From: Escherichia coli
GTDB lineage: Bacteria > Pseudomonadota > Gammaproteobacteria > Enterobacterales > Enterobacteriaceae
Assembly: GCF_041248615.1 (NCBI RefSeq)
Contig: NZ_CP158426.1
DNA: 64,000 nt
Strand: one strand, 5' to 3'
Positions 46,801 to 49,800 of the stretch are shown here, piece after piece. The position numbers were made by a program. Position 1 is the first letter of the stretch; each line of letters opens with the position of its first letter.

Positions 46801-49800
46801 CAAAAGAGGCGCGCAGTGTGCCGGTTACGCCTAATTCTGCCAGTAGCGGCTGAGCGCAATGCTGCCCGGCCCGCAGGGCAATACCGTACTCCGCCAGCAG
46901 CGTCACCATATCGCTATGATGAACGCCAGCAAAATCAAAGGCCAGCAGGCTGGAATCCTGGCAGCGGAATGAACGAAAGCCGGGACGTTTCGCCAGCGCA
47001 TCTTCCGCCAGCGTTGCTAAGCTACGGCTCCAGCTTTCGGCCTGGTTGATATCGTAATCTGCCAGCCATTCCAGCGCCGCGCTTAATCCTATGACACCAG
47101 CGACATTTGGCGTTCCAGCTTCCAGTTTCCACGGCGCAGATTGAGTCGTGAAGCCGTCAAAACTCACTTCGTGAACCATTTTGCCGCCGCCCAGCCAGGG
47201 CGACATCGCCTCCAGCAGTTCTGATTTACCATACAGCACGCCGATACCTGTCGGGCCATACAGTTTGTGACCTGAAAAAGCATAGAAATCAATATCCAGT
47301 TGCTGAACATCCGCGGGGAAATGCACTGCCCCCTGAGCACCATCAACCATCACCACCATCCCGGCTGAATGAGCAAAGGTAATCGCTCGCGCCAGATCCG
47401 GACAACCGCCAGTAACGTTCGACATCTGACCCAACGCCAGAATCCGACTACGGGGAGTAATCAGTTCTGGCAACAAATCGACATCCGGCAGTCGCTGCGC
47501 ATTAAGCGGCAATTTCACCACTTTGGCTCCAGTTTGTTGGGCGACCATCAGCCAGGGGACGAGGTTGGCGTGGTGTTCTGCCACGCTGACAATAATCTCA
47601 TCGCCCGGTTGCAGACGCGGACGCGCATAGCATTGTGCCACCATGTTGATGGATTCAGTGGTGCCGCGCGTCCAGACGATAGTTTTATCATCCGGTGCAT
47701 TCAGTAATTGCGCCACTTTCTCTCGTGCAGCTTCATAACGCGCGGTCAGGCGTTGGGCTTCGGCAAACTGGCTGCGATGGACGTTTCCGGCGCTCAGACT
47801 GTAAAACTGTTGGGTGGCTTCAACCACGGCTTCAGGTTTAAGCGCGGTCGCGGCGCTGTCGAGATAGACGCCCGCATCCTGTAGTGCGGGAAACTGGGCG
47901 CGAAACTGCGCGGGATTAAAAACGTTCATGGTACTCCTCGGCTTGATGCACCGATCGTGACGCAAAATTCACTTTGATACAAGGAGAGTGCTAACCATCA
48001 GAATTATCTGGATATCCTGGCGAAGCCGCGTAAGTAACATATGCTGAATAGTGTTAGGCGTTAATTTTAGCCTGTTAATCAATACTATTAAGATTTATTA
48101 ATCGCTTTAAGGAGAAGATGATGAAAAAGACTGCCGCAATTATTTCTGCCTGTATGCTGACTTTTGCCCTGAGCGCCTGTTCCGGTTCGAACTATGTGAT
48201 GCACACCAATGACGGACGTACCATCGTCTCTGACGGCAAACCACAGACTGATAACGATACCGGTATGATTTCGTATAAAGACGCTAATGGCAACAAACAG
48301 CAGATCAACCGTACTGACGTGAAAGAGATGGTCGAACTGGATCAGTAATTCGCGATCGCAAGGTAAAAAAAAGCACCGCAATTAGGCGGTGCTACATTAA
48401 TCACTATGGACAGACAGGGTAAATGTACAGGAAGTGAAAAAAGGTAGCTTTGCTACCATGGTCTGAATCGCAGACCAATTGCAAACACAACAACACAACA
48501 TCACAACCGTAAGCCAAAAGTTCACCAGAACACGCATTCCGATAAAACTTTTCGTTCCGGCTCAGGAAGTGCCGCCACTATAGGTATTTGCTGGTAGAAG
48601 CTCAACGGACAATTTATAATGGCTCAGATTAAAAAAACTAATAGGTTACATAGTGTGATCTAATTGTTAAATTCATTTAACATCAAAGTTTAATAGCCAT
48701 GTCTAAACGATTACCACCGCTAAATGCCTTACGAGTTTTTGATGCCGCAGCACGCCATTTAAGTTTCACTCGCGCAGCAGAAGAGCTTTTTGTGACCCAA
48801 GCCGCAGTAAGTCATCAAATCAAGTCTCTTGAGGATTTTTTGGGGCTAAAACTGTTCCGCCGCCGTAATCGTTCACTCCTGCTGACCGAGGAAGGGCAAA
48901 GCTATTTCCTCGATATCAAAGAGATATTTTCGCAATTAACCGAAGCGACGCGTAAACTCCAGGCCCGTAGCGCCAAGGGGGCGTTGACGGTCAGTTTACT
49001 CCCCAGTTTCGCCATTCATTGGTTGGTTCCGCGACTTTCCAGCTTTAATTCAGCTTATCCGGGAATTGACGTTCGAATCCAGGCGGTTGATCGTCAGGAA
49101 GATAAGCTGGCGGATGATGTTGATGTGGCGATATTTTATGGTCGGGGCAACTGGCCGGGGCTACGGGTGGAAAAACTGTACGCCGAATATTTATTGCCGG
49201 TGTGTTCGCCGCTACTGCTGACTGGCGAAAAACCCTTGAAGACACCGGAAGATCTGGCTAAACATACGTTATTACATGATGCTTCGCGCCGTGACTGGCA
49301 GACATATACCCGACAGTTGGGGTTAAATCATATCAACGTTCAGCAAGGGCCAATTTTTAGCCATAGCGCCATGGTGCTGCAAGCGGCTATCCACGGGCAG
49401 GGAGTGGCGCTGGCAAATAACGTGATGGCGCAATCTGAAATCGAGGCCGGACGTCTTGTTTGCCCGTTTAATGATGTTCTGGTCAGTAAAAATGCTTTTT
49501 ATCTGGTTTGTCATGACAGTCAGGCAGAACTGGGTAAAATAGCCGCCTTTCGCCAATGGATCCTGGCGAAAGCCGCTGCTGAACAAGAAAAATTCCGCTT
49601 TCGTTATGAACAATAATTTACGTAGGGTACGACCATGACCAGCCGTTTTATGCTGATTTTCGCCGCCATTAGCGGCTTCATTTTTGTGGCTCTGGGCGCT
49701 TTTGGCGCGCATGTGTTAAGTAAAACCATGGGGGCCGTTGAGATGGGCTGGATCCAGACCGGCCTCGAATACCAGGCGTTTCATACGCTGGCGATCTTAG

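What the first reader, a model, noticed from the sequence alone, without database searches (positions are those of the whole stretch)
48365..48570. GcvB sRNA divergent from gcvA, partly overlapped by spurious ORF calls
The minus-strand sequence matches GcvB along its full length, including the G/U-rich R1 seed region and the terminal hairpin. The 350-bp ygdI-gcvA gap is therefore not empty.
Basis: partly seen in the sequence, partly recalled or inferred. Interest (0 to 1): 0.25.

Follow-up and report, generated by a model that had tools for sequence, protein, structure and literature searches.

The report
GcvB small RNA gene, already known

Summary
Confirmed and ordinary. The whole 350-bp ygdI-gcvA gap (48349-48698) is 350/350 identical to E. 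coli K-12 MG1655 (NC_000913.3). That record annotates gcvB (b4443, 206 nt) at exactly the corresponding bases.

All documented parts are present:
- a sigma-70-like promoter 7 nt upstream of the 5' end;
- stem-loop 1, the G/U-rich R1 seed, R2 and R3;
- the internal terminator t1 and the final terminator t2 with a U8 tail.

The RNA occurs in 5425 of 5426 complete E. coli genomes. It is full length in 19 of 19 other gammaproteobacterial genera sampled, with compensatory base-pair changes. gcvA is the divergent neighbour in 18 of 18 loci where this could be tested.

The short ORFs over it (46, 37, 34 and 97 aa) have no Pfam match. The two sense ORFs and the aligned start codon were checked across genera and are not conserved.

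Novelty: already known. Interest: very low.

The parts
48365..48570 (-). gcvB, full-length GcvB sRNA (206 nt; 5' end at 48570, 3' end at 48365)
   Evidence: RF00022 199 bits, E 1.1e-46, model 1-204/204. Identical to and coextensive with NC_000913.3 b4443 ncRNA 2942696-2942901.
48600..48605 (-). gcvB promoter -35 hexamer TTGAGC
   Evidence: Consensus scan, 17-nt spacer, 9/12 match. The complementary CTCAA core lies in a block conserved across 14 Enterobacterales genera.
48577..48582 (-). gcvB promoter -10 hexamer TATAGT, 7 nt upstream of the RNA 5' end
   Evidence: Consensus scan. ACTATAGG is invariant in all 14 aligned control regions.
48575..48645 (.). Shared gcvB/gcvA control region. It holds both promoters, including a perfect TATAAT at 48615-48620 on the + strand that is the likely gcvA -10, and an invariant CTAAT at 48638-48642, a candidate GcvA-binding motif. 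Assigning the GcvA site is inference.
   Evidence: Cross-genus alignment shows near-invariant blocks here, while the region 48646-48698 is not conserved. CTAAT positions. [quoted passage not shown] CTAAT as the GcvA recognition motif is from my own memory of the work of Stauffer and co-workers, not tested here.
48512..48562 (-). Stem-loop 1 (RNA nt 9-59), one of the two published SroC sponge pairing sites
   Evidence: Rfam consensus structure, all 20 pairs standard in this sequence. Basal helix 93.9% paired. Apical helix has double changes in 9 of 14 pairs across genera. SroC pairing at SL1 and SL4: PMC9299463.
48478..48508 (-). R1, the G/U-rich seed (RNA nt 63-93), main target-pairing region
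   Evidence: 87% G+U over nt 63-92. Unpaired in the Rfam consensus. Core TTGTGTTTGCA invariant in 20/20 genera, partly by construction because it was in the search pattern. Function: PMC9299463.
48460..48476 (-). Small hairpin GGUCUG-CGAUU-CAGACC (RNA nt 95-111)
   Evidence: All 6 pairs show compensatory double changes across genera, 91.7% of cells paired.
48437..48457 (-). Internal Rho-independent terminator t1 (hairpin GGUAGC-AAA-GCUACC plus U6; RNA nt 114-134), giving the short transcript of about 130 nt
   Evidence: Terminator scan. 4 of 6 pairs have double changes, 94.8% paired. Literature: about 90% of E. coli gcvB transcripts end at t1 and about 10% at t2 (PMC1557403).
48421..48436 (-). 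R2 conserved region CACUUCCUGUACAUUU (RNA nt 135-150)
   Evidence: CACTTCCTGT invariant in 20/20, partly by construction. R2 is described as highly conserved and used for cycA (PMC9299463).
48405..48420 (-). R3 seed region (about RNA nt 151-166, ACCCUGUCUGUCCAUA); boundaries approximate
   Evidence: Published R3 point mutants G156C, G160C and C162G (PMC9299463) fall on G, G and C when numbered from 48570. ACCCTGTCTGTCCATAGTGA is conserved in 15 of the 16 Enterobacteriaceae-to-Morganellaceae rows; Rahnella differs by a one-base gap and one substitution.
48365..48393 (-). Terminator t2: hairpin AGCACCGC-CUAAUU-GCGGUGCU plus U8 (RNA nt 178-206), a typical 3' module of Hfq-binding sRNAs
   Evidence: Terminator scan, 8 pairs of which 6 are G-C. 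91% of cells paired, with compensatory changes in Pasteurellaceae. The Hfq-binding role is inferred from established knowledge of Hfq-dependent sRNAs.
48699..49616 (+). gcvA, LysR-type regulator, divergent neighbour and activator of gcvB
   Evidence: Annotated WP_000044401.1 in the source record. Divergent from GcvB in 18/18 other genera.
48121..48348 (+). ygdI lipoprotein gene, convergent with gcvB; its stop codon lies 16 nt from the GcvB 3' end. Context only, not part of the system.
   Evidence: Annotation. A ygdI-like neighbour is present only in the Enterobacteriaceae, Yersiniaceae and Hafniaceae loci.

Best explanation
This is the gcvB gene of E. coli. It is transcribed leftward (minus strand) from a sigma-70 promoter that shares a conserved control region of about 70 bp with the divergent gcvA gene. 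Published work shows that GcvA activates gcvB when glycine is abundant and that GcvA plus GcvR represses it otherwise. Transcription ends mostly at an internal terminator (t1, about 134 nt) and otherwise at t2 (206 nt). The RNA is an Hfq-dependent trans-acting regulator. Its single-stranded G/U-rich R1 region, and also R2 and R3, pair imperfectly with C/A-rich stretches at or near the ribosome-binding sites of dozens of mRNAs. These include amino-acid and peptide transporters (dppA, oppA, gltI, livJ, argT, sstT, cycA) and amino-acid metabolic enzymes. Pairing represses translation or destabilises the mRNA, which limits amino-acid uptake and synthesis in rich medium. GcvB is itself removed by the sponge RNA SroC, which pairs at SL1 and the R3 region and triggers RNase E cleavage. 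Shown here: identity, boundaries, structure, conservation, synteny, and lack of support for the ORFs as genes. Taken from the literature, and applicable because the sequence is 100% identical to K-12: transcription, regulation, Hfq dependence, targets.
For: Full-length RF00022 hit, 199 bits, E 1.1e-46. 350/350 identity of the whole intergenic region to NC_000913.3, coextensive with annotated b4443. Promoter-like site ending 7 nt upstream of the 5' end and two terminator-like sites at the published t1 and t2 positions. Present in 5425/5426 complete E. coli genomes, at >=99% identity in 5389. Full-length GcvB in 19/19 other gammaproteobacterial loci and none in a Flavobacteriales chance match. 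Compensatory changes: 10/22 RNAalifold pairs. On the Rfam-type structure, 83.7% of cells are paired against 36-45% when the partners are slid, 24/45 pairs have double changes, and 0/500 shuffles reach this. gcvA is divergent in 18/18 loci, with a conserved promoter block. Published R3 mutant numbering fits a 5' end at 48570. Function and regulation: PMC9299463 and PMC1557403.
Against: Nothing substantive. No expression data exist here for this particular strain (NRZ14408). The stem enclosing R3 (helices 5-7) is only 43-71% paired in my MAFFT alignment and was not recovered by RNAalifold, so that part of the Rfam structure is weakly supported by my own comparison; the alignment is gappy there. 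The invariance of the R1 and R2 cores in my set is partly by construction, because they formed the search pattern.
Confidence: 0.98

Rival explanations
1. The region encodes one or more small proteins, either instead of or in addition to the RNA function (a dual-function sRNA like SgrS/SgrT). The candidate ORFs are the 46-aa sense ORF at 48397-48537, the 37-aa sense ORF and the 34-aa antisense ORF.
For: The ORFs exist mechanically. The 46-aa ORF with its ATG is retained in E. albertii, Citrobacter and Pluralibacter.
Against: Those genera are nearly identical in nucleotide sequence, so retention carries little information. In Enterobacter and Shimwellia the ORF has a changed length or frame (44 aa). 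It is absent in Yersinia, Xenorhabdus, Photorhabdus, Haemophilus and Pasteurella, and the aligned ATG is lost in most of the other genera outside Enterobacteriaceae, though kept in Rahnella. A 7-8-nt indel in R1 between lineages shifts the frame. No Pfam match. The ATG (RNA nt 34-36) sits in the apical stem and loop of SL1 with no properly spaced Shine-Dalgarno sequence. [quoted passage not shown] 2000, as cited in PMC1557403).
Confidence: 0.02
2. The sequence is only passive intergenic DNA: the ygdI 3' region or terminator plus gcvA upstream regulatory DNA, with an inactive relic of gcvB.
For: The source RefSeq annotation lists nothing in the gap. ygdI ends 16 nt from the terminator hairpin.
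Against: The sequence is intact and identical to the functional K-12 gene, promoter included. Conservation follows RNA structure, with compensatory pairs. No terminator-like site was found on the + strand for ygdI. The lack of annotation is seen in every PGAP-annotated record listed, including a K-12 MG1655 record, so it appears to reflect the pipeline and not the biology.
Confidence: 0.01

Closest known systems
E. coli K-12 gcvB (b4443; Rfam RF00022 GcvB)
   Same: Identical in all 206 nt and in the entire 350-bp intergenic region. Same neighbours (ygdI, gcvA, ygdD, rlmM, csdA) and same orientation.
   Different: Nothing in the sequence. The host is a different strain (E. coli NRZ14408, NZ_LT599825.1, 5.34 Mb), whose RefSeq annotation does not label the gene.
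GcvB of other Enterobacterales and Pasteurellales (e.g. Yersinia pestis GcvB, PMC1557403; Pasteurella multocida GcvB, PMC5900567)
   Same: Divergent gcvA, the R1 core UUGUGUUUGCA, R2 CACUUCCUGU, a two-terminator layout and the terminal hairpin.
   Different: The E. coli and Enterobacteriaceae form has a longer R1, with 7-8 extra nt (GUUGUGAU duplication-like insertion), and a different SL1 apex. Pasteurellaceae copies are shorter (180-190 nt) and lack the enterobacterial R3 sequence.

Membership tests
GcvB sRNA (Rfam RF00022) | Scores above the curated gathering threshold of the GcvB covariance model over its full length | tested here: met
   199.0 bits against 42, E 1.1e-46, model 1-204/204, not truncated.
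GcvB sRNA (Rfam RF00022) | Transcribed divergently from gcvA, sharing a control region | tested here: met
   5' end at 48570(-), gcvA ATG at 48699(+), 128 bp between them. The same arrangement holds in 18/18 other genera, and the promoter block is conserved.
GcvB sRNA (Rfam RF00022) | Single-stranded G/U-rich R1 seed | tested here: met
   RNA nt 63-92 are 87% G+U. Unpaired in the Rfam consensus. Core invariant across 20 genera.
GcvB sRNA (Rfam RF00022) | Conserved R2 (CACUUCCUGU) and R3 seeds | tested here: met
   R2 at RNA 135-150 is invariant. R3 positions G156, G160 and C162 match the published mutants.
GcvB sRNA (Rfam RF00022) | Two Rho-independent terminators (t1 internal, t2 final) giving RNAs of about 130 and 206 nt | tested here: met
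   Both were found by the terminator scan at RNA 114-134 and 178-206, matching PMC1557403. Actual termination was not measured here.
GcvB sRNA (Rfam RF00022) | Conserved secondary structure supported by covariation | tested here: met
   24/45 pairs have double changes, 83.7% of cells are paired against 36-45% in slid controls, and 0/500 shuffles reach this. The stem around R3 is weak in my alignment.
GcvB sRNA (Rfam RF00022) | Hfq-dependent repression of amino-acid and peptide transporter mRNAs (dppA, oppA, etc.); GcvA/GcvR/glycine control of transcription | not testable with these tools
   Taken from the literature on the identical K-12 sequence (PMC9299463, PMC1557403).
Dual-function sRNA (sRNA that also encodes a small protein, e.g. 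SgrS/SgrT) | An ORF within the sRNA that is conserved across species and has a translation start signal | tested here: not met
   The 46-aa ORF is not conserved beyond near-identical relatives. No Pfam hit. The start codon lies in the SL1 apex without a spaced SD. Reported as not translated (PMC1557403).

The most novel reading that the evidence does not exclude
The 46-aa sense ORF inside GcvB (48397-48537, start at RNA nt 34), retained in Escherichia, Citrobacter and Pluralibacter, could be translated at a low level. That would make enterobacterial GcvB a lineage-specific dual-function RNA. My evidence makes this very unlikely but cannot formally exclude it without ribosome-profiling data.
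Probability: 0.02. Interest if true: 0.4.

Novelty: already known. Interest (0 to 1): 0.04.

Why it matters
It matters little as a discovery, because GcvB has been studied since 2000 and is a model Hfq-dependent regulator of amino-acid transport and metabolism. There are two practical points. First, the first-stage reader can recognise a known sRNA from raw sequence at exact coordinates. Second, the PGAP-annotated RefSeq records examined here, including the source genome and a K-12 MG1655 record, leave this universally conserved regulatory gene unlabelled. An apparently empty 350-bp gap in such annotations should therefore not be read as empty.

Tried and rejected
1. Two Python attempts to compare with NC_000913 failed because locus L002 had not yet been exported to the sandbox. 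I used DNA alignment instead.

2. Pfam scan of the four overlapping ORFs found nothing at E <= 0.1.

3. I looked in the GcvB regulon paper for genes that lie in this window (sdaC, sdaB, argA, lysA, yqeG, araE) as possible local targets. There were no mentions, so I found no evidence of a cis or neighbourhood target relationship.

4. RNAalifold on the MAFFT alignment did not recover SL1 or the stem around R3. Projecting the Rfam structure recovered SL1 well, but the R3-enclosing stem only weakly. I treat this as an alignment limitation or a weakly conserved stem, not as evidence against GcvB.

5. I considered whether the t2 hairpin also terminates convergent ygdI. No terminator-like site was found on the + strand, so I make no such claim.

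6. The second CTAAT at 48660 is not conserved beyond close relatives, so I do not propose it as a conserved GcvA half-site.

Full report
**Observation.**
- An Rfam scan of the entire window returns one GcvB (RF00022) match at exactly 48570->48365 on the minus strand. It scores 199.0 bits against a gathering score of 42, E = 1.1e-46, covers model positions 1-204 of 204 and is not truncated.
- The ygdI stop codon ends at 48348 and the gcvA ATG is at 48699, so the gap is exactly 350 bp.
- The RNA folds more stably than all 200 dinucleotide-preserving shuffles (-62.1 kcal/mol, z = -3.6).

**Identity and source.**
- The 350-bp gap is 100% identical to many E. coli genomes, including K-12 MG1655.
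- In the curated record NC_000913.3, an ncRNA gcvB (b4443, "small regulatory RNA GcvB") is annotated at 2942696-2942901, between gcvA and ygdI.
- A direct alignment shows 350/350 identical columns. The annotated 206 nt correspond exactly to window 48570->48365.
- The window itself is NZ_LT599825.1 (E. coli isolate NRZ14408) positions 1088001-1152000.
- That record's PGAP annotation has no feature in the gap, and neither does a PGAP-annotated K-12 record. All rows listed in the population searches also show no annotated feature under the match.
The "spurious ORF calls" it mentions are not calls in these records; they are only mechanical ORFs.

**Anatomy (numbering from the 5' end at 48570).**
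- Promoter: a sigma-70-like promoter (-35 TTGAGC at 48605-48600, 17-nt spacer, -10 TATAGT at 48582-48577) ends 7 nt upstream of the 5' end.
- SL1: RNA nt 9-59. All 20 Rfam pairs are standard in this sequence.
- R1: nt 63-93 form the G/U-rich seed, with 87% G+U over nt 63-92 against 62% overall.
- Small hairpin: nt 95-111.
- t1: nt 114-134 form the internal terminator (GGUAGC-AAA-GCUACC plus U6).
- R2: nt 135-150 (CACUUCCUGUACAUUU).
- R3: about nt 151-166.
- t2: nt 178-206, an 8-pair hairpin (6 G-C) followed by U8.
- The published R3 point mutants G156C, G160C and C162G (PMC9299463) fall on G, G and C in this numbering. This independently supports the 5' end.

**Conservation within E. coli.** The 206 nt are found in 5425 of 5426 complete genomes, at >=99% identity in 5389 and with a median of one copy per genome.

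**Conservation beyond E. coli.**
- A pattern scan of species-representative genomes with the R1 core and R2 returned loci from many Enterobacterales and Pasteurellales. It also returned a few chance matches in unrelated phyla.
- Rfam found a full-length GcvB in 19 of the 19 gammaproteobacterial loci I sampled (84.8-198.5 bits). It found none in the Flavobacteriales chance match used as a control.
- On a MAFFT alignment not fitted to the model, RNAalifold recovered the small hairpin, t1 and t2. Ten of its 22 pairs show compensatory double changes.
- I projected the Rfam-type structure of the E. coli sequence onto that alignment. 83.7% of cells form standard pairs, against 36-45% when the 3' partners are slid by 1-3 columns. 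Double changes occur in 24 of 45 pairs, and 0 of 500 shuffles reach the observed values.
- The stem that encloses R3 is weak in this alignment (43-71% paired), where the alignment is gappy.
- The invariance of the R1 and R2 cores in my set is partly by construction, since they were the search pattern.

**Synteny and control region.**
- gcvA is on the opposite strand, immediately upstream of the GcvB 5' end, in all 18 loci with enough flanking sequence. The distance is typically 96-130 bp and is 129 bp in the window.
- Aligning the intergenic control regions of 14 Enterobacterales genera shows a nearly invariant block at window 48575-48645. The block contains the gcvB -10 and -35 hexamers, a perfect TATAAT on the gcvA strand (48615-48620) and an invariant AAAAACTAAT (CTAAT at 48638-48642).
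- The remainder of the region up to the gcvA ATG is not conserved.
- Assigning that site to the conserved CTAAT-containing block is my inference.

**The overlapping ORFs.** Four mechanical ORFs touch the RNA:
- 46 aa, sense, RNA nt 34-174;
- 37 aa, sense;
- 34 aa, antisense;
- 97 aa, antisense to ygdI, starting inside the t2 hairpin.

Evidence that they are not genes:
- None has a Pfam match.
- The 46-aa ORF survives only in genera whose nucleotide sequence is almost identical (E. albertii, Citrobacter, Pluralibacter). It has a changed length or frame in Enterobacter and Shimwellia. It is absent in Yersinia, Xenorhabdus, Photorhabdus, Haemophilus and Pasteurella. The aligned ATG is lost in most of the other genera outside Enterobacteriaceae, though kept in Rahnella.
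- A 7-8-nt indel in R1 between lineages is incompatible with a conserved reading frame.
- Its ATG lies in the apex of SL1 without a properly spaced Shine-Dalgarno sequence.
[quoted passage not shown] 2000).

**Mechanism.** The sequence, promoter included, is identical to K-12, so the published mechanism applies.
- GcvB is an Hfq-dependent trans-acting sRNA induced when glycine is high.
- It uses R1 for most targets, and R2 and R3 for some. It represses more than 50 mRNAs, mainly for amino-acid and peptide transporters (dppA, oppA, gltI, livJ/K, argT, sstT, cycA) and amino-acid metabolic enzymes.
- It is degraded by RNase E after pairing with the sponge SroC at SL1 and SL4/R3 (PMC9299463).
- About 90% of transcripts end at t1 and about 10% at t2 (PMC1557403).
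- Shown here: identity, boundaries, structure, conservation and context. Taken from the literature: transcription, Hfq dependence and target regulation.

**Comparison, novelty and verdict.**
- This is not merely similar to GcvB. It is the gcvB gene itself, identical to the reference allele.
- Every sequence-level defining feature I could test was met.
- The only untested features are experimental ones already established for the identical K-12 sequence.
- Novelty: already known. Interest is very low.
- The most novel reading not formally excluded is low-level translation of the 46-aa ORF in Escherichia and its closest relatives. I put this at about 2%.

Noticed in passing
window 14881-14962 (+) and 15077-15164 (+): Two tandem OmrA-B family sRNAs (RF00079; 86.1 and 96.6 bits) lie between galR and aas. 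Like gcvB, they are not annotated in the source RefSeq record. From my memory of the K-12 map, the aas-proximal 88-nt copy should be OmrA and the 82-nt copy OmrB.
   Followed up: no
window 45307-45349 (+): Rfam hit to ES036 (CssrF) sRNA, 46.5 bits against a gathering score of 37.6, in the mltA-tcdA intergenic region; not annotated in the source record. A weaker hit to the same family (39.2 bits) appears on the E. albertii locus L009 that also carries GcvB.
   Followed up: no
window 43583-43879 (-): Three tandem tRNA-Met genes at 110-bp spacing, downstream of amiC and upstream of mltA; the three Rfam hits score identically at 61.4 bits. From memory these are probably the metZ-metW-metV initiator tRNA cluster of K-12.
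   Followed up: no
window 1521-2765 (-): An IS1B-family transposase (programmed frameshift) sits directly next to a truncated winged-helix regulator pseudogene beside yqeH. This suggests an IS1 insertion disrupted that gene in this strain.
   Followed up: no
L126 (E. coli OkiPb01677, NZ_AP042483.1) 3001-4560: In one complete E. coli genome the gcvB match stops after RNA nt 125, and an ISVsa5 (IS4-like) transposase gene lies between that point and ygdI. This is a natural IS disruption that removes the region downstream of nt 125 from the transcript. One further genome of 5426 has no gcvB match at all, and one match lies on a plasmid record; I did not examine either.
   Followed up: partly
window 48349-48698 and equivalent positions in other RefSeq E. 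coli records: Every PGAP-annotated E. coli record listed in the searches shows no annotated feature under gcvB. The curated NC_000913.3 record was not among the listed rows; looked up directly, it carries the ncRNA feature. This looks like a systematic annotation gap for a universally conserved sRNA.
   Followed up: partly
L035 1673-2017 (-) (Edwardsiella hoshinae): A full-length CsrB/RsmB RNA (217 bits) lies about 7 kb from gcvB on the Edwardsiella locus. This is incidental.
   Followed up: no
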